From Chthonomonadales bacterium (GTDB lineage: Bacteria; Armatimonadota; Chthonomonadetes; Chthonomonadales; Chthonomonadaceae), in assembly GCA_038217285.1 (NCBI GenBank), contig JBBQPO010000194.1, forward strand, positions 1 through 11,853: 11,853 nt of DNA, in the 5' to 3' direction. The notes beneath the pieces were generated by a model, which saw only the letters and a program-made list of their open reading frames with translations, was not told the origin of the DNA and did no database searches. The position numbers and the translations under genes are program-made. This document shows, one piece after another, positions 1 to 11,853 of this stretch (positions are counted from its first letter, which is position 1; the number at the start of each line of letters is the position of its first letter).

Positions 1-295
1 TTGTCGCGCTTGTAAGCCTCACACGCTTTGCTGATAGCGCGTATCGCCATCTGAGAGGAAATCCTCCGAACACAGGAGGATTTGGAGTGCGCCTCTGGCG
101 CTTCCTCTTCCGTTTGCACTCCTCGCGCAGGCGTGTGTAGACAAAGGGCTGGAGGGCGATCTTGTTGGCGGAATGCTTCTGGAAGGCAACTTCCGCCACA
201 TAATCGCAACCTGCGTTGAACGCTTCCATCGTCTCAAGGAGAGCATGGAACTGTTCGGGTGTCGTTTCCAGTGTGAGCGCGATTGTCTGCTTCAT
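1..295 (-). pseudogene. tnpB: RNA-guided nuclease TnpB (IS200/IS605 family, IS1341-like with no tnpA), 5' part; runs off the window; frameshifted by a 50-bp insert at 62-111
   Basis: ATG at 295 reads MKQTIALTLETTPEQFHALLETMEAFNAGCDYVAEVAFQKHSANKIALQPFVYTRLREECK. After removing 62-111 it continues in frame as LSSQMAIRAISKACEAYKRD, matching the typical TnpB N-terminus (MKxTxxxKLxPTxEQxxxLxxTMExFNxACxY...LRExFGLSxQMAIRAIxKVxEAYKRD). An IS605-type end hairpin lies upstream. Not in the ORF track. Confidence 0.85.
62..111. repeat. 50-bp structured insertion (REP-like double hairpin) inside tnpB
   Basis: Exact removal restores the TnpB frame (AAA C|TT TCC). Contains hairpin AAATCCTCC-7nt-GGAGGATTT (59-83, whose AAA comes from the flank) and GGAG-T-GCGCC-TCT-GGCGC (84-101). 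Confidence 0.7.
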
Positions 296-301
296 ATCTC
301 T

Positions 302-310
302 ATTCTACCA
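302..310 (-). promoter_or_regulatory. Extended -10 promoter (TGgTAGAAT) for tnpB, probably giving a leaderless transcript
   Basis: Minus strand TGGTAGAAT-AGAGAT-ATG: 6 nt between the -10 and the start codon, no Shine-Dalgarno, AT-rich upstream. Confidence 0.55.
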
Positions 311-380
311 TAAAACGTAGTGTAATTAAATCAATGTAAGCGGTTATTTTCGGAAGCGTTGAACTCTCCTGCGGAGGGCA

Positions 381-436
381 AGGATACCATTCCTCCTCTG
401 CCTAAAGGCAAGGGGCCTCCTGGTATGAATCTGTGA
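381..436 (-). mobile_element. IS200/IS605 left end (subterminal hairpin) of the tnpB element, with putative target motif TCAC
   Basis: Minus strand TCAC|AGATTCATACCAGGAGGCCCCTTGCCTTTAGGCAGAGGAGGAATGGTATCCT: imperfect hairpin of the IS605-end type, about 90-140 bp upstream of tnpB. The exact boundary is inferred by comparison with the copy at 922-981. Confidence 0.75.
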
Positions 437-444
437 TACACTGG

Positions 445-514
445 CCCAATCCGTATACCGGATTGGGAATATTGCCTCCCTACGCGCCTTCCACTGGAGA
501 CGATTCTCGTCTCC
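445..514. terminator. Two perfect hairpins downstream of the acyl-CoA ligase remnant (possible terminators)
   Basis: CCCAATCCG-tatac-CGGATTGGG (445-467) and GGAGACGA-ttc-TCGTCTCC (496-514); no clear U-tract. Confidence 0.4.
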
Positions 515-529
515 TCACTCGTTCGAAAG

Positions 530-710
530 TTACATCAGGGCGCTGCGCAGGGACTTCTTGTCCAGTTTGCCGACGCTGGTTTTGGGCAGGAAACCGACGC
601 AGTGGATGTCCGAAAGCCGGGGCAACTGCCAGCGGGCAAAGCGGGAGCTCAGCACACCGAGGAGCTCCTGCAGGGAGAGGATTTGCTGCGGATAGCGTAG
701 GAATACATAG
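530..710 (-). pseudogene. 3' remnant of a long-chain fatty acid-CoA ligase (AMP-binding C-terminal domain)
   Basis: YVFLRYPQQILSLQELLGVLSSRFARWQLPRLSDIHCVGFLPKTSVGKLDKKSLRSALM* contains the FAxWQLP and LPKTSVGKLDKKxLR (A10 catalytic Lys) motifs. Similarity stops at an IS605-type hairpin near 711. Confidence 0.8.
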
Positions 711-750
711 GTTCTATACCCAAGCCTAACGGCACGAGAGCCTTCCGACG
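711..750 (-). mobile_element. Degenerate IS200/IS605-type end hairpin (right end of a miniature element, or a third left end)
   Basis: Minus strand GAAGGCTCTCGTGCC-GTTA-GGCTTGGGTATAGAAC shares the TGCC-nTnA-GGC core and orientation with the hairpins at 381-436 and 922-981. Confidence 0.45.
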
Positions 751-921
751 GTTTTACGAAGCAAGATGGCATCGTTTGCTTCAACTTTGAACCGATGTTC
801 TCGAACCGTCACTACCCTATCATTACACCGCGTTCCGGAGAAGCGGAAACCCCGCACAAAACTATTCAGAAAGGAAGTCAAGGACTTGCAAAGCCTGGTC
901 CTGAAAGCCCGGTTTCGCAAC

Positions 922-981
922 AGGATAGCAATTCCTCCCATGCCTGAAGGCAATGGGTCTCCTTGCAAATGTTGTCTATGA
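922..981 (-). mobile_element. Second IS200/IS605 left end, putative target motif TCAT, with no intact tnp gene behind it
   Basis: Plus strand AGGATAGCAATTCCTCCCATGCCTGAAGGCAATGGGTCTCCTTGC...TCTATGA aligns with AGGATACCATTCCTCCTCTGCCTAAAGGCAAGGGGCCTCCTGGT...TCTGTGA at 381-436. Confidence 0.7.
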
Positions 982-2195
982 AAGCCTTGCCTTTGGCCGT
1001 AACGCTCGTCCTGATGAGCCTGCTGCCCCTTTATCCCGTTGCTGCTGCCGCCCCGGAAACGATCCCGTGGGACATGAAGGCGCTCTCGCAGACTCCCCAT
1101 TTCACGGACGCCCCCACCTACAGCAAAGACGAAGTGAAAGCCATTTTTTACGACGGCGTTCCCTGGAAAGGCCAGACCACGCGGGTGTTCGCCTACTACG
1201 GCGTGCCCAAAACCCAACCGGGAAAGCGCGTACCGGCGATGGTGTTGGTGCATGGGGGCGGCGGATCGGCTTTCATTCCCTGGGTCAAACTCTGGGTGTC
1301 GCGAGGCTATGCCGCGATCTCCATGGACACCTGCGGCTCTACCAATGATGGCGGCTACAAAGATCATCCGCGTGATCCGCAGGGCGGGCCGCCGGGATGG
1401 GGCGGCTTCGATCAGATCGATCAGCCCGTGACGGACCAGTGGACCTATCACGCCGTCGCCGATGTGATCCTGGCGCACTCCCTCCTCCGATCGTTCCCTG
1501 AGGTCGATCCGCAGAAGATCGGCATCACGGGCGTCTCCTGGGGCGGCTACCTCACCTGCATCGTAGCCGGGGTGGACAACCGCTTCAAGTTCGCGGCGCC
1601 TGTCTACGGCTGCGGTTTTTTGGGCGAAGATTCAGTCTGGCTGCCTGACTTTCAGCGGATGGGGCCGGAAAAGGCAGCGAAGTGGCTGGGCCTTTGGGAC
1701 CCCTCCGTCTACCTCGCCAAGGCCCGCATGCCGATGCTGTGGGTCGATGGCACCAACGACTTCGCCTATCCCCCGGATTCGCTTCAGAAGTCGTATCGCC
1801 TGCCGACAGGGGCGCGTACGCTCTGCATGCGCGTTCGCATGGCGCACTCGCATGGAGGGCCTGGCGAAAACCCGGAGGAGATCCACGCAATGGCGGACGC
1901 CCTCCTACGCGGACAACCTTCCCTGGCCCGGATCACAAAGTCCGGTCGGGAGGGGACGACCGTCTGGGCGACCTATACCTCCTCCACCCCCATCGCCGGG
2001 GCCGAGTTGAACTACACCACCGATAGCGGCGAGTGGCAGAAACGCAACTGGCAGACCCTGCCCGCCACGCTGGATGCCGCCCAGGCGCGTATCTCGGCCG
2101 ATCTTCCAGCGGGCGTCACCGCCTACTATCTCAACCTGACCGATGTGCGGAACCTTGTCGTCAGCACCGAGCATGAGACCCTGACGCCCCGTTAG
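978..2195 (+). CDS. Secreted alpha/beta hydrolase (acetyl xylan esterase / peptidase S9-like)
   Basis: 405 aa from ATG 978. Sec-type signal MKALPLAVTLVLMSLLPLYPVAAAA; oxyanion LVHGGGG; nucleophile GVSWGG; acid GTND; His in MAHSH. Confidence 0.88.
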   Translation: MKALPLAVTLVLMSLLPLYPVAAAAPETIPWDMKALSQTPHFTDAPTYSKDEVKAIFYDGVPWKGQTTRVFAYYGVPKTQPGKRVPAMVLVHGGGGSAFIPWVKLWVSRGYAAISMDTCGSTNDGGYKDHPRDPQGGPPGWGGFDQIDQPVTDQWTYHAVADVILAHSLLRSFPEVDPQKIGITGVSWGGYLTCIVAGVDNRFKFAAPVYGCGFLGEDSVWLPDFQRMGPEKAAKWLGLWDPSVYLAKARMPMLWVDGTNDFAYPPDSLQKSYRLPTGARTLCMRVRMAHSHGGPGENPEEIHAMADALLRGQPSLARITKSGREGTTVWATYTSSTPIAGAELNYTTDSGEWQKRNWQTLPATLDAAQARISADLPAGVTAYYLNLTDVRNLVVSTEHETLTPR

Positions 2196-9072: not shown

Positions 9073-11698
9073 CTACCCCACTCCTTCTCCTGTCAGATAG
9101 TGCGTGAGAGGTTCTCCAAGCAAGCTGATAAGCTTTAGCAGATGCTCCTCGACAAAGTTGTCGTATTCCGTGTCTTTATTGCTGCCTGCTGTCTTCTTGT
9201 GCAAGGCGCTTACACCCTCTTCGATAAACTCATCATAGAGCGCGAACGCCGATCTCGCGTTCTCCGTCTTTGAATGCCGTATTCTGACAAACTTCTGCAG
9301 GATGCGAAACATGACTTTGCGAAACACCGTTGTTTGCAGCCGATAGTGCTGAATCCGACTTCGGAATAACCAGTGAAAGGAGTTGTCGTCCGTCGCACCC
9401 AACAGCGTCAGGTTCCTGTACGTCAGTCCAGGCGCGTGCGAGGTGCGGGACGGCGGGACTGGCTGTCTTCGCGGTGCGCTCCGTCAGTCCAGGCGCGTGC
9501 GAGGTGCGGGGTTCGGTAGTCAGGGCTGTGCGAATATAAGATGCGTCCGGCATTTTACGTGTCGGCAGCCCGACTCCCATCTGCATGCGATCAAAATTGG
9601 CGCGGACAGTGGATAGGATGTCCAGGGTATCGTATCCTAATCGAAGCGATTTGCTTCCCCTGGTGATGGCAAGATGCCAGTCTCCCCTGGTCGAGAAGCT
9701 TCCAGGCAGCCGTATCGGAGTATATCCTGCGAAGTTCTCATCCTGGGTCGCATGGACGGCCGTGGAGTACCAGTGGCGCACGGCCACGGAGGGAAACGCG
9801 CGGCGAGGCAGTATGTCGAACCCGGTATCGGTTGCCTGAAGCATCTCCGCGTCGAACGCTTCGGCCATGAGTTTCAATGTAAAAAAGAGCGCCGCGCGCG
9901 CCACCTCGTTTTGCAGCAGACCGATAAGATTGAGAGGCTGTTTTGGATCACGCCTGGAGTTTGGCGTGTCGCGTATCTCGTCTGCGAGAGTTTGGGCCGC
10001 GCTCCATTCCTCTTCGGGGAGGCCGGTGCGTTTCGCGCGATCAACAAAAAACAAAAACTCTGAAAACCAGATCTCCAGTATCGTTGCCGTGAGATTTTCC
10101 GGCGATGTAAGATCGATATCGAAGGGCTTTAACTTGTGACCGGCTGTCCAGTCGGCAATAAAACAACAGGTCTCCAGAAATAAGCGCCATCCGAGCAGAT
10201 CGAGGTTGAATTTATGCTTGTCCAAATCATCTATTCGCTTTTTATCGTCTTCTCTGCCATAAGGTCCTTTCTCAGAAGAACGACCTTCGTCCGCCGAATA
10301 TGTATAGAACCCTCTCAAACCCTTTCGACCCAGACTGCGATCCACGCGTGCGAAACGCAGTATCTCGGCCATCTCTCTCACCTGGAACTTCGGCTTGTCC
10401 GGATCACGTTTTTTGATCCACTTTTTTCGATTCGTGTCGGGCAGAGGAATTTCGACGATGTACGCGCTCCGCCAGGCGTCCGGACGGGTTAAGATCAGCC
10501 CGAAATCCCAGGTGAACGGAACCCTGTCTTCTCTATCCTTGATCCAAAACGGATCGAAAGAACTATCCGACTCCGCTTCCGGATCGGTAGAAGTGCGTGG
10601 GACATCCGGATCTTTCGGCGTTACGACATGGTTATTTAGCAGAGGGCGGTTGATTTGAGAATACGAGTCGTTATATATCTTGGCTCTGGGGATTCCCTCC
10701 CTTGTTTTGCTGAGGTAGGCCTCTTTAAGAGGATGCAGGGAGGCGCGCGCCTCCCAGAACTCCTCGACAGCGACGACCTGGGTGTAGTTCTGCCGGGTAT
10801 CGCGCTGGAGGAAGATCGTGTCTCGGAGCAGATCGTATTCCATTTCTTCCACGATGGGCTGATCCTTTGGCTCTCCGGGCGTGATCTTGTGGAGCAATTC
10901 GCCAATCGTAGTTGCGTAGAGACGTTGGGCAGGCGTCTGTCCGAGAAGCCTCAGATGCAGCCTGACCGGTTTGGGATTCCCGGTCTCGAAGCCTTCATAG
11001 CGCTCCAAACTGGGATCGATCTCAATGAGACCGTGGTTCCGTTCGACCTGTTTGACTTCGCGGACGAGAGTTCGGCCATCCGCATGCTTTTGCGGTGTGA
11101 CGGCGATCGCGATGCGTGCATCGCCCGGTACGCGCCATGTATAGATCGTCTGATCTGCAATCTGTGCGAGTCGACTCCGGCTCTGATACACGGAGGGAAG
11201 GGCGCCCGTATCGGTGCGCGACTCCGTGATGAGCGTTGTCACACCGCGTCTCTTCAAATGGAAAATCAGCAGAGGGAGGAACTGTGAACTGGCGGCGACA
11301 TCAGGATATCGCTCTTCGATGAGAGCCCAGTCACCCAGGGTGACAACGACCTTCGCCGCTTCGGCTTGCTGCTCTGCAGTCAGCTTCGACACGTCGACGT
11401 TGTGGGGAAAGGCCCTTCGCAGCCCCTCTTCGACACATTCGGCGATAGTGGCGAACAGCACGGAAGCAGAGTTGGTATTGATCTCCAGACGCCGACAGAT
11501 AACACGAGCCTCGATCTCCGCTAATTCCCCCCATGAGGGTACGCTCCGCGTCTGAGGGGAACGCGAGGCAAGGGATCTCGTTGAGTTCCTTATACGGTGA
11601 ATGCGCGCAGCGATCTCCCAGGAGTCCACATCCCCGGTTGTGAGGTGAACGATAATTGGTATGACCTCTGAACGGGGTTCGCGCAACAGCGCTTGCAC
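9073..11698 (-). pseudogene. KaiC/RAD55-like domain fused to a solute-binding-protein-like domain; frameshifted by a 61-bp insertion; 5' end uncertain
   Basis: N-part: VVVTLGDW, HLKRRGVTTLITE, LAQIADQTIYTW, TLVREV resemble the C-terminal half of a RecA/KaiC fold. C-part: RVPFTWDFGLIL, AVRHW, LPGSFSTRGDWHLAITRGSKS, GVGLPTRK resemble family-1 sugar SBPs. Deleting one 61-bp unit joins ORF 9233..11698 to ORF 9073..9402 in frame (854 aa). Confidence 0.65.
9421..9510 (-). repeat. 29-bp exact direct repeat around a 32-bp unique segment (CRISPR-like repeat-spacer-repeat)
   Basis: CGTCAGTCCAGGCGCGTGCGAGGTGCGGG at 9421-9449 and 9482-9510; intervening ACGGCGGGACTGGCTGTCTTCGCGGTGCGCTC (9450-9481). Confidence 0.95.
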
Positions 11699-11853
11699 GG
11701 ATTGCCGGTAAGGCCATCGCTGACAAGTTAAGGTCTGAGTTGGTTCGTCAATAGCCGAACAGTGTCTAGTGATTTGGGTCTTTTGGCCTTGATAATCGCA
11801 AGAGCCGAAGCTTTGCGAGCCAGATATTCAATCGGATCATCGGCCAAGCCCCG

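What the first reader, a model, noticed from the sequence alone, without database searches (positions are those of the whole stretch)
54..122. 50-bp insert in tnpB that is complementary to both of its own flanks
Seen: removing 62-111 restores TnpB exactly, with no target duplication, at a C|T step on the coding strand. The insert carries TTCCTCT (102-108), complementary to left-flank AGAGGAA (54-60), and GGAGTGC (84-90), complementary to right-flank GCACTCC (116-122). These two 7-mers sit on either side of a GCGCC/GGCGC hairpin, so together they read as an antisense copy of the empty site. A second hairpin (59-83) is extended by flank bases. Known: REP elements are a GTAG/GGAG tetranucleotide plus a hairpin, and E. 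coli TnpA-REP cleaves at CT. Inference: a tiny element that selects its target by base pairing (HUH/REP-like), or a template-switch product. A more remote option is an RNA-level removable or bypassable insert (T4 gene 60 has a 50-nt bypass, but the take-off stop codon is missing here).
Basis: partly seen in the sequence, partly recalled or inferred. Interest (0 to 1): 0.7.

Follow-up and report, generated by a model that had tools for sequence, protein, structure and literature searches.

The report
REP-like hairpin repeat inserted in tnpB
The 50-base insert that breaks this tnpB gene is one copy of a small two-hairpin repeat found about 45 times in this bacterium's genome, and it is a rare case where the exact site and size of such a repeat's insertion can be read.

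Summary
Window 62-111 is a real +50-nt insert in a tnpB gene (minus strand). Eleven of 11 intact homologs need exactly this gap. Contigs from four public runs carry the filled allele, and two runs also carry empty alleles that are 50 nt shorter. The insert is not unique. It belongs to a family restricted to this genus, with about 45 copies here and 39 and 23 in two sister species: GAAAT-hairpin1-ATTTGGRRTGC-hairpin2-CTTCCT tail. Both hairpins are kept by compensatory changes, and the copies are mostly extragenic and often sit in REP/BIME-like mosaics. A second +50-nt copy sits in another tnpB remnant (contig C63). The insertions make no target duplication, fall in the loops of pre-existing hairpins, and follow GAA(A). 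The 7+7-nt flank complementarity is real and unlikely by chance for this copy (about 8 in 10,000). It does not recur across 67 copies, so a general antisense guide is not supported. The most likely route is a single-strand (HUH/Y1, RAYT-like) insertion. Microhomology-guided template switching is the main rival, and translational bypass is unsupported. The element fails the GTAG and RAYT-flanking tests for classical REPs, so I call it a new variant of a known kind. At least two copies of the IS carry the insert.

The parts
62..111 (+). The 50-nt insert: one copy of the two-hairpin repeat family, top strand as drawn for the family
   Evidence: net +50 against the empty alleles; covariance model R1 scores window 55-119 at 49.3 bits
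59..83 (+). Hairpin 1: AAATCCTCC / GGAGGATTT with a 7-nt loop; A59-61 come from the target
   Evidence: Pairs are kept by compensatory change in the 52-sequence alignment
84..88 (+). Conserved linker GGAGT (family: GG[G/A][G/A]T), in the position where REPs carry GTAG
89..101 (+). Hairpin 2: GCGCC TCT GGCGC
   Evidence: CG:38 / GC:7 at the inner pair
102..111 (+). 10-nt pyrimidine tail TTCCTCTTCC.
   Evidence: L072 ends ...GCGCTTCCTCTTCC as here
57..61 (+). GGAAA: native tnpB bases (codons L-S on the minus strand) immediately 5' of the insert; they coincide with the family's invariant GAAA
   Evidence: 3 of 11 homologs have GAAAG at this site; closest empty allele has CGAGA
55..59 (+). 5' arm (GAGGA) of a 5-bp hairpin in the empty target; its 3' arm is TCCTC at 120-124, and the insertion point lies in its 10-nt loop
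120..124 (+).
112..295 (-). tnpB, N-terminal 61 codons up to the insert
   Evidence: Homolog L030 (73% identical) carries OrfB_IS605 and Cas12f1-like TNB domains
1..61 (-). tnpB continuation (..SSQMAIRAISKACEAYKRD) in the shifted frame; it runs off the contig end
296..436 (-). Non-coding left end of the tnpB-only IS, shared at 97.5-98% with contigs C390 and C266

Best explanation
Window 62-111 is a copy of a lineage-specific, REP/BIME-like small dispersed repeat. The unit is about 50-51 nt and consists of hairpin 1, a GGRRT linker, hairpin 2 and a pyrimidine tail of about 10 nt. It integrated into the 5' part of a tnpB gene of an IS200/IS605-type, tnpB-only element. Shown: integration added exactly 50 nt, made no target duplication and removed no target bases. 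Shown: it happened right after a native GAAA (GGAAA^G) inside the loop of a weak 5-bp hairpin, and it frameshifts TnpB. Shown: the insert was there before the IS multiplied, because at least two IS copies with different flanks carry the identical insert. Inferred: the unit moves as folded single-stranded DNA handled by a Y1/HUH enzyme (RAYT-like or IS200-TnpA-like, four candidates in the genome). In this model the enzyme cuts next to the hairpins and joins the unit 3' of GAA(A) in exposed hairpin loops, in the manner of IS200/IS605 and REP processing.
For: - Real insertion of 50 nt. The filled allele is in contigs of X1, X2, X3 and X4 (four studies). Empty alleles are in X3 and X2.
- Family membership: model R1 finds 46 own-genome copies at E<1e-3. 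G001 has 41, G003 28, G002 1 and G004 0. Across 61 genomes of the order, only this genus has copies, apart from one weak hit.
- Structure under selection: 97.1% of cells are paired against 86.0% in shuffles. 47 cells have two-sided changes against 7.4. Six of 11 pairs covary.
- Mostly extragenic: only 22 of 46 copies lie in an open frame of at least 150 codons, against 93.5% of 2000 random sites.
- Second in-gene event: C63 has net +50 relative to C173 and three other homologs, again with no duplication.
- Hairpin-loop targets: both in-gene empty sites have a 5-bp stem around the site, whereas 8.5% of 20,000 random sites do. Paralogous filled/empty pairs show the module inside the loops of GCCCGC-GNAG-GCGGGC, AGCGC-RAA-GCGCT and GTCCGC-GAAG-GCGGAC hairpins. 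In G003 it sits in the loop of a long hairpin that is empty in G000:C126.
- GAAA rule: GAAA precedes the T in nearly all copies. Here it is native coding DNA, and 3 of 11 homologs naturally have GAAAG at this site.
- Candidate enzymes: four Y1_Tnp genes.
- Insert predates IS spread: G002:C213 joins the C390-type flank to the same insert, while the window joins it to a different flank and carries 5 SNPs.
- Literature (passages read): TnpA-REP cleaves ssDNA beside REP hairpins, with the tetranucleotide 5' of the hairpin acting like an IS200/IS605 guide (PMC8266576). A pairing step in REPIN targeting has been proposed (PMC3116915).
Against: - No enzyme is linked to the family. The three RAYT-like genes (C104, C375, C220) are flanked by a different repeat, GTAG-CGAGGGG..CCCCTTG, and C119 by yet another.
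- Distribution does not track that system. G002 has 6 Y1 hits and 13 GTAG-REPs but no family copy of its own, while G003 has 23-28 family copies but only 4 GTAG-REPs by my pattern.
- At C63 the empty site favoured by four homologs (GAC) puts the 5' junction 2-3 nt earlier in the consensus than in the window. A fixed GAAA^T cut needs an unobserved GAA allele.
- Older filled/empty pairs show 3-6 target bases replaced and net gains of +47 to +51, which a clean cut-and-join does not predict unless the sites mutated later.
- The junctions are not at C|T on the element's top strand.
- No excision or circle junction was seen; only contigs were available, not raw reads.
Confidence: 0.55

Rival explanations
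1. Copy-choice or template switching. Replication stalls at a small hairpin in tnpB. The nascent strand re-anneals by a few bases (GAA/GGAAA) to a family copy elsewhere, copies about 50 nt of hairpin-rich DNA and returns. No dedicated enzyme is needed. The mosaics of hairpin modules in intergenic DNA arise in the same way.
For: - The 5' junction always lies in bases shared by the target and the family's 5' end: 5 nt here. At C63 it is 1-2 nt under the favoured empty site. In loops of the GAAG or RAA type it is GAA.
- The junction position in the consensus differs between the two clean events.
- Older events show small replacements and net gains of +47 to +51.
- Nested and truncated copies and 51-nt tandem units exist.
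- Targets are hairpins, which are known stall sites.
Against: - Both clean events add exactly 50 nt with no loss of target bases and no visible microhomology at the 3' junction.
- No donor copy identical to the insert was found in the own genome (best match: 28 nt of hairpin 1 at C23), nor in the metagenome collection with a 31-nt pattern.
- Strong conservation of GAAAT/ATTTGG and of both stems over three species suggests recognition by a protein.
Confidence: 0.28
2. One reading: the element carries a bipartite antisense guide. The tail would pair with the left flank, and the linker plus hairpin-2 arm with the right flank. This guide would select the site by base pairing, as IS200/IS605 guides, bridge RNAs or group II intron EBS sites do.
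For: - 7+7 nt of complementarity in this copy. At least 7 on both sides occurs in only 0.08% of random genomic placements.
- The other in-gene copy (C63) has a 6-nt match between TGTCCC in the insert and GGGACA 2-3 nt into the right flank. The window and C63 hold two of the three highest right-flank values among 67 copies.
- Bertels and Rainey proposed a pairing step for REPIN targeting (PMC3116915, passages read).
Against: - There is no covariation between element and flank across 67 copies (p=0.42 and 0.86).
- The paired segment sits at different element positions in the two cases (first 7 nt after ATTT versus nt 5-10).
- C63 has no left-flank match (3 nt).
- The left match here is explained by the family-wide CTTCCT tail meeting a purine-rich flank.
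Confidence: 0.1
3. RNA-level rescue: ribosomes bypass or frameshift across the insert so that TnpB is still made, which would explain why insert-bearing IS copies spread.
For: - Both reading frames are open across the insert.
- A matched CGG (112-110) / CGG (68-66) pair would yield ..CK-R-RI-SSQ.. (my reading).
- An SD-like GGAGG lies at the 3' end of the gap.
- Insert-bearing copies are multiple and are seen in four studies.
- The gene 60 gap is also 50 nt (abstract of 10.1101/2022.08.31.505936).
Against: - There is no stop codon in the incoming frame anywhere up to the window's end, whereas a stop or hungry codon at take-off is a conserved feature (abstract).
- By my estimate, about two matched codon pairs are expected by chance among roughly 16 x 16 codons.
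- There is no slippery heptamer.
- The same family inserts in non-coding DNA and in a dead tnpB remnant.
- TnpB is not needed for transposition (recalled from the literature, not checked here).
- The related contig G020:C234 shows this tnpB decaying further downstream.
Confidence: 0.03
4. Assembly artefact at a contig end.
For: - The insert lies 61 nt from the start of contig C194.
- Window 1-195 is present only once in the assembly.
Against: - The identical sequence occurs in an independently assembled contig (G002:C213) that has another flank.
- Contigs from four runs of four studies carry it without gaps.
- The insert is a bona fide family member.
Confidence: 0.01

Closest known systems
REP / BIME repeats and their RAYT (TnpA-REP) Y1 transposases (E. 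coli, Pseudomonas REPINs, Stenotrophomonas)
   Same: Short GC-rich hairpins with a conserved purine tetranucleotide just 5' of a hairpin. Tens of mostly extragenic copies, restricted to a lineage. They are arranged in mosaics with other hairpin modules. Y1 genes are present in the genome. No terminal inverted repeats or target duplications.
   Different: The tetranucleotide is GGAG/GGGG/GGGA/GGAA, not GTAG. The unit has two unlike hairpins. The RAYT-like genes here are flanked by another repeat, which does carry GTAG. Copy number is modest. Two precise in-gene insertions with known empty sites are visible here. I know of no such case reported for REPs (recall; my library searches were limited).
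IS200/IS605 transposition chemistry (IS608, ISDra2) and their gene-less derivatives (PATEs)
   Same: Insertion without duplication, directly 3' of a short conserved motif that stays outside the element. Subterminal hairpins. The right end lies about 10 nt beyond the last hairpin (IS608 figure recalled). Single-strand logic fits hairpin-loop targets.
   Different: 50 nt is far smaller than any such element I know of. The two hairpins are unlike each other. No cognate TnpA has been identified. The left junction lies inside the foot of hairpin 1, not upstream of it.
Small dispersed repeats (SDR) of cyanobacteria (Elhai et al. 2008, Genome Res 18:1484; recalled, paper not held)
   Same: Very small (tens of nt) hairpin-forming mobile repeats found nested in other sequences, without duplications and without a known enzyme.
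   Different: Different phylum and sequence. The comparison rests on recall only.
T4 gene 60 bypass cassette and mitochondrial 'byp' elements
   Same: A 50-nt structured insert in a coding region, of mobile origin.
   Different: No stop or hungry codon at take-off, no evidence for a nascent-peptide signal, and the family is mainly non-coding.
MITEs and Rickettsia palindromic elements (recalled)
   Same: Small non-autonomous repeats that can land inside genes.
   Different: MITEs have terminal inverted repeats and duplications; this element has neither. RPEs insert in frame and are translated; this insert shifts the frame.

Membership tests
REP / REPtron (RAYT-associated) | Short palindromic unit, many mostly extragenic copies | tested here: met
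   46 copies at E<1e-3. 22 of 46 lie in long open frames, against 93.5% of random sites. Stems are kept by covariation.
REP / REPtron (RAYT-associated) | Conserved GTAG tetranucleotide 5' of the palindrome | tested here: not met
   The linker is GG[G/A][G/A]T in all aligned copies. A separate repeat in the same genome does carry GTAG (45 matches).
REP / REPtron (RAYT-associated) | A single-copy RAYT gene flanked by the same repeats | tested here: not met
   The four Y1 genes are flanked by other repeats. The family copy on C220 lies about 8.7 kb from the Y1 gene.
REP / REPtron (RAYT-associated) | Cleavage at CT (or CA) next to the hairpin | tested here: inconclusive
   The empty site here is C|T on the coding strand. 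At C63 this holds only under the less favoured empty site. No biochemistry was done.
IS200/IS605-type element / PATE | No target duplication; insertion 3' of a fixed tetra- or pentanucleotide | tested here: inconclusive
   No duplication in 2 of 2 clean events. GAAA^ is met in the window. It is met at C63 only if the target had GAA instead of the GAC seen in 4 of 4 homologs.
IS200/IS605-type element / PATE | Cognate Y1 TnpA that recognises similar hairpins at both ends | tested here: not met
   Hairpins 1 and 2 differ in sequence. No linked Y1 gene was found.
MITE | Terminal inverted repeats and target-site duplication | tested here: not met
   Direct reading of the junctions.
Programmed translational bypass (gene 60 type) | Matched take-off and landing codons, with a stop or hungry codon after take-off | tested here: not met
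   A CGG/CGG pair exists, but no stop follows in the incoming frame. The feature list is from the abstract of 10.1101/2022.08.31.505936.
Known RNA families (Rfam 15) | A covariance-model match | tested here: not met
   Nothing on window 1-1000 except a chance-level hit at 607-632, E=5.4.
TnpB (host gene) | OrfB_IS605 / RuvC-like and TNB zinc-finger domains | tested here: met
   The window holds only the first 81 codons. Its closest intact homolog, L030 (73% identical over 59 aa), has PF01385 and PF07282.

The most novel reading that the evidence does not exclude
The family is a minimal (50-51 nt) single-strand transposable unit with defined ends: it starts at the T after GAAA and ends 10-11 nt past hairpin 2. 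A Y1/HUH enzyme integrates it at GAAA^G in exposed hairpin loops. If so, the window and C63 events would be, to my knowledge (recall, limited searches), the first natural insertions with matched empty sites that reveal the cut sites and target rule of a REP-class repeat. The local likeness or pairing between the element's extended hairpin 2 and the target hairpin would contribute to site choice.
Probability: 0.3. Interest if true: 0.65.

Novelty: new variant of a known kind. Interest (0 to 1): 0.45.

Why it matters
How REP-like repeats spread is still poorly understood; the abstract of PMC8266576 says so. Most copies are old and sit in mosaics where their ends cannot be read. Here a copy landed in a conserved gene, so its size (+50), its ends, the absence of a duplication and its target are all readable. 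The target is GAAA^G in a hairpin loop. A second such event and several filled/empty paralog pairs point the same way. This gives concrete substrates for testing the genome's four Y1 enzymes. It also shows a tnpB-only IS that kept multiplying after its tnpB was frameshifted.

Tried and rejected
- Rfam scan of window 1-1000: nothing relevant.
- Earlier-findings look-ups: empty.
- Orthologous empty sites in G000 for 29 copies from G001 and G003: intergenic DNA is too diverged (80-87% identity) to fix junctions, except L085 against C126.
- None of those 29 loci lies in a tnpB.
- Search for a donor copy: none in the own genome beyond 28 nt of hairpin 1 at C23. There were 0 matches to a 31-nt pattern of the insert in metagenome contigs.
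- Search for an empty allele with any 5 nt at the site in metagenome contigs: 0 matches.
- No RNA holder was listed among the sequencing runs, and only contigs (no raw reads) could be laid. Excision, circle junctions and expression therefore could not be examined.
- Contig depths (IS contig 35 against flank contig 8.2 in X1) hint at about four filled copies, but the tool warns that depth is not copy number.
- Correlation of the family with Y1 genes or with the GTAG repeat across five genomes of the genus: none that is clean.
- The 12-nt identity between the hairpin-1 loop of the C63 insert and the CRISPR repeat on C74 is at chance level for a 6.2-Mb genome.
- Elhai et al. 2008 could not be read.
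- 'Armatimonadota' together with 'repetitive extragenic palindromic' gave 0 papers.
- The idea that the insert brought its own GGAAA and replaced 5 target bases is unnecessary, because 3 of 11 homologs naturally have GAAAG at this site.

Full report
**Setting**

- The window is the first 11,853 bases of contig C194 of a 459-contig, 6.2-Mb, 60% G+C assembly.
- Record titles of related loci name Armatimonadota / Chthonomonadales MAGs.
- A tnpB gene starts at ATG 295 on the minus strand and runs off the contig end.
- Its non-coding left end (296-436) is shared at 97.5-98% with the ends of contigs C390 and C266, so the IS is a multi-copy repeat on which the assembly breaks.

**The observation**

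- The reading frame changes across 62-111.
- Twelve related loci were translated. One stops before the site. The other 11 (L030-L037, L040-L042) read ...ANKIALQP(F/M/L/I)(V/I)Y....(G)L(S/P)(S/A)Q(M/L)A(I/V)R..., with the same number of residues that the window has once 62-111 is left out. Leu is kept in 11 of 11 and GLSSQ in 8 of 11.
- The closest homolog, L030, carries OrfB_IS605 and Cas12f1-like TNB domains.
- DNA evidence came from Logan contigs of four runs from four studies:
  - The filled allele is covered without gaps in X1 (1-409), X2 (1-142) and X4 (1-125). In X3 a 60-nt contig covers 55-114.
  - X3 also holds a contig that joins 56 to 112 with CGAGA between.
  - X2 holds one that joins 31 to 118 with 36 diverged letters between.
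  - Both joints are net -50 and both encode ..L-S-S-Q...
- So the insert is real and is exactly +50.
- An independent assembly, G002:C213, has the same insert. It is identical to the window over 1-272 but carries the C390-type SNPs further on.
- G002:C213 is 99.96% identical to G000:C390 over 2,600 nt of flank. Hence at least two IS copies with different flanks carry the identical insert, which therefore predates their duplication.

**The insert belongs to a repeat family**

- BLAST and motif scans showed that hairpin 1 and the following GGRRTGC recur in the genome.
- A covariance model built from 21 copies (A1, R1) finds 50 own-genome matches at E<=0.1, of which 46 are below 1e-3.
- In the sister species it finds 41 (G001), 28 (G003), 0 (G004, 73% complete) and 1 (G002).
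- The single G002 hit is the tnpB copy on C213. That contig is near-identical to G000:C390 and may belong to the same population.
- Across 61 genomes of the order at E<=1e-5, only this genus has copies (42, 39, 23 and 1), apart from one weak hit in G005; the other 56 genomes have none.
- The consensus is GAAAT, then a variable stem-loop, then ATTTGG(G/A)(G/A)TGC, then a short GC stem-loop, then a CTTCCT.. tail.
- In a 52-sequence model-fitted alignment:
  - 97.1% of cells pair, against 86.0% in shuffles (0 of 500 shuffles reach this).
  - 47 cells carry changes on both sides, against 7.4 expected.
  - 6 of 11 pairs covary, for example AAATCC/GGATTT to AAATTC/GAATTT, AAATGC/GCATTT and AAATAC/GTATTT.
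  - The alignment leans towards the model, but sliding the partners by 1-3 columns gives far lower scores.
- Copies avoid long open frames: 22 of 46 lie in a frame of at least 150 codons, against 93.5% of 2,000 random sites.
- Many copies sit in mosaics with other hairpin modules. One such module is GCGCGTAGCGAGGGG..CCCCTTG, a classical GTAG repeat. By pattern it occurs 45 times in the own genome, 40 in G001, 13 in G002, 4 in G003 and 0 in G004.

**Candidate enzymes**

- Four Y1_Tnp genes are present.
- Three of them (C104, C375, C220) are flanked by the GTAG repeat, in the manner of RAYTs. The fourth (C119) is flanked by another inverted repeat.
- None is flanked by the family studied here.
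- Across five genomes of the genus, neither the Y1 genes nor the GTAG repeat track the family.

**A second clean event**

- R1 also hits C63:11532-11595. This lies in an internally deleted remnant of a different tnpB, whose full copy sits on C173 and carries HTH_OrfB_IS605, OrfB_IS605 and TNB domains.
- Relative to C173, C63 has 54 nt where C173 has 4, which is again net +50, with no duplication.
- Four homologs (C173, G007, G001:C553, G013) read GAC at the codon before the site. This favours an empty site ..CATGA^CAGGGAC...
- A one-base alternative, ..CATGAAA^GGGAC.., would put the insert after GAAA and before G exactly as in the window, but it needs a GAA allele that was not observed.

**Targets are hairpin loops**

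- The inferred empty site in the window has a 5-bp stem (GAGGA 55-59 with TCCTC 120-124), and the insertion point lies in its 10-nt loop.
- The favoured C63 empty site has CCCTG/CAGGG around a 5-nt loop.
- Only 8.5% of 20,000 random genomic sites have a stem of at least 5 bp around them.
- Paralogous filled/empty pairs in the own genome show the module inside the loops of three hairpin modules:
  - GCCCGC-G(A/C/T)AG-GCGGGC: filled in C33 and C341, empty in at least 10 other copies.
  - AGCGC-(A/G)AA-GCGCT: filled in C162, empty in C183 and C215.
  - GTCCGC-GAAG-GCGGAC: filled in C12, C106, C122, C226 and C256, empty in many copies.
- In these older cases 3-6 target bases differ or are replaced, and the net gains are +51, +50 and +47.
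- In G003 the module, with extra 5' sequence, sits in the loop of a long hairpin that is empty in G000:C126.

**The GAAA**

- In the window, GGAAA (57-61) is native coding DNA (codons CTT TCC).
- The closest empty allele (X3) has CGAGA there. It differs at two third-codon positions, while the neighbouring 56 nt on the left and 34 nt on the right are identical.
- Three of 11 homologs naturally have GAAAG at this site. The filled allele's ancestor therefore probably had it too, and no replacement needs to be assumed.
- The insert lies exactly where the family consensus passes from GAAA to T. This is about a 1-in-200 coincidence unless GAAA is either a recognised target or a microhomology used in joining.

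**The flank complementarity**

- For this copy it is unlikely by chance. At least 7 nt on both sides occurs in 0.08% of placements at random genomic sites and in 0.025% of shuffles.
- Across the family it is not a rule. I parsed 67 of 75 copies (46 own plus 29 from relatives); 8 were dropped, 2 as too short and 6 as not parsed.
- In those 67, a copy's own flanks are no more complementary than other copies' flanks (p=0.42 on the right, p=0.86 on the left).
- The window holds the maximum on both sides (7 and 7). C63 has 6 on the right and 3 on the left.
- The left 7-mer is the family tail, which can also extend hairpin 2. Both 7-mers pair with the arms of the former target hairpin. In other words, the target hairpin resembles the base of the element's hairpin 2.
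- This may have helped site choice, but it is not a fixed guide: the paired segment sits at different element positions in the two cases.

**Mechanism**

- What is shown points to a single-strand, hairpin-centred route:
  - a precise +50 insertion with no duplication and no loss of target bases;
  - hairpin-loop targets;
  - a conserved 5' GAAA context;
  - structural conservation of both hairpins;
  - Y1 genes in the genome.
- This resembles IS200/IS605 and REP processing. Passages of PMC8266576 describe cleavage beside the hairpin, with the 5' tetranucleotide acting as a guide.
- The enzyme, the strand and the cut sites are inferred, not shown.
- Template switching at stalled hairpins explains the variable junction position and the small replacements better. 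It explains the two exact +50 events and the strong conservation of the hairpin feet less well.
- Translational bypass or frameshifting is not supported. The incoming frame has no stop, matched codons are expected by chance, and the family is mainly non-coding. The feature list for bypass is taken from the abstract of 10.1101/2022.08.31.505936.

**Comparison and novelty**

- The family works like a REP/BIME-type repeat, but it fails two defining REP tests (GTAG and a flanked RAYT). It also fails the MITE tests.
- It shares the no-duplication, "3' of a short motif" style of IS200/IS605, but it is far smaller and has unlike hairpins.
- I found no description of such repeats in Armatimonadota (0 papers). 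The cyanobacterial SDR paper that may be the closest analogue could not be read.
- I rate it a new variant of a known kind. Interest is moderate, because it offers rare, readable insertion events for a class whose spread is unexplained.

Noticed in passing
window 900-960 compared with window 380-436: A second sequence that looks like the IS left-end hairpin region (..attcctcccatgcctgaaggcaatgggtctcc..) lies about 470 nt from the IS end. Further partial left-end copies occur on C8, C144, C82 and C239. These may be solo ends or gene-less derivatives.
   Followed up: no
G000:C63:~11440-11760 (L095) compared with G000:C173 (L096:374-1591): C63 holds a tnpB remnant in which about 930 nt were deleted between short TGG(G) repeats. 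Its 3' part carries the second +50-nt family insert.
   Followed up: yes
G000:C74 (for example 100-2250): A CRISPR array with repeat CGGTTCACCCCCGCGTCTGCGGGGAATAGC. Its last 12 nt equal the hairpin-1 loop of the C63 insert, and several family loops read GG(A/G)ATAG. The match length is at chance level.
   Followed up: partly
G000:C104, C375, C220 (L006-L008) and C119 (L005): Three RAYT-like Y1 genes are flanked by GTAG-CGAGGGG..CCCCTTG repeats. The upstream 'ORF' parts are translated repeats (..GVITPRYA..). The C119 Y1 gene is flanked by another inverted repeat and is followed by four tandem copies of a unit of about 37 nt.
   Followed up: partly
G002:C213 compared with G000:C390: A 4.3-kb contig of the sister-species genome is 99.96% identical to an own-genome contig. 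It is the only place in G002 that holds the repeat family. This suggests either shared population DNA or a mis-binned contig.
   Followed up: partly
G000:C147:1-132, the end of C137, the end of C95: Head-to-tail units of the family with a 51-nt period (..CTTCCTTGTC|ATCC..) sit at contig ends. This is either a tandem duplication or a trace of a circle junction.
   Followed up: no
G000:C23:28843-28933: A hairpin 1 identical to the window's (28 nt) is followed not by hairpin 2 but by a complete second family unit. This is a nested or truncated arrangement.
   Followed up: no
G020:C234:4903-6439 (L013): A contig of another genus ends with 37 nt identical to window 1-37. It continues the tnpB for about 40 codons before the frame decays, next to an amidohydrolase-like open frame. 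Its bases 1306-1403 are 100% identical to the ends of own-genome contigs C228 and C452.
   Followed up: partly
window 441-465: A perfect 9-bp hairpin (cccaatccg gtatac cggattggg) lies just outside the IS left end.
   Followed up: no
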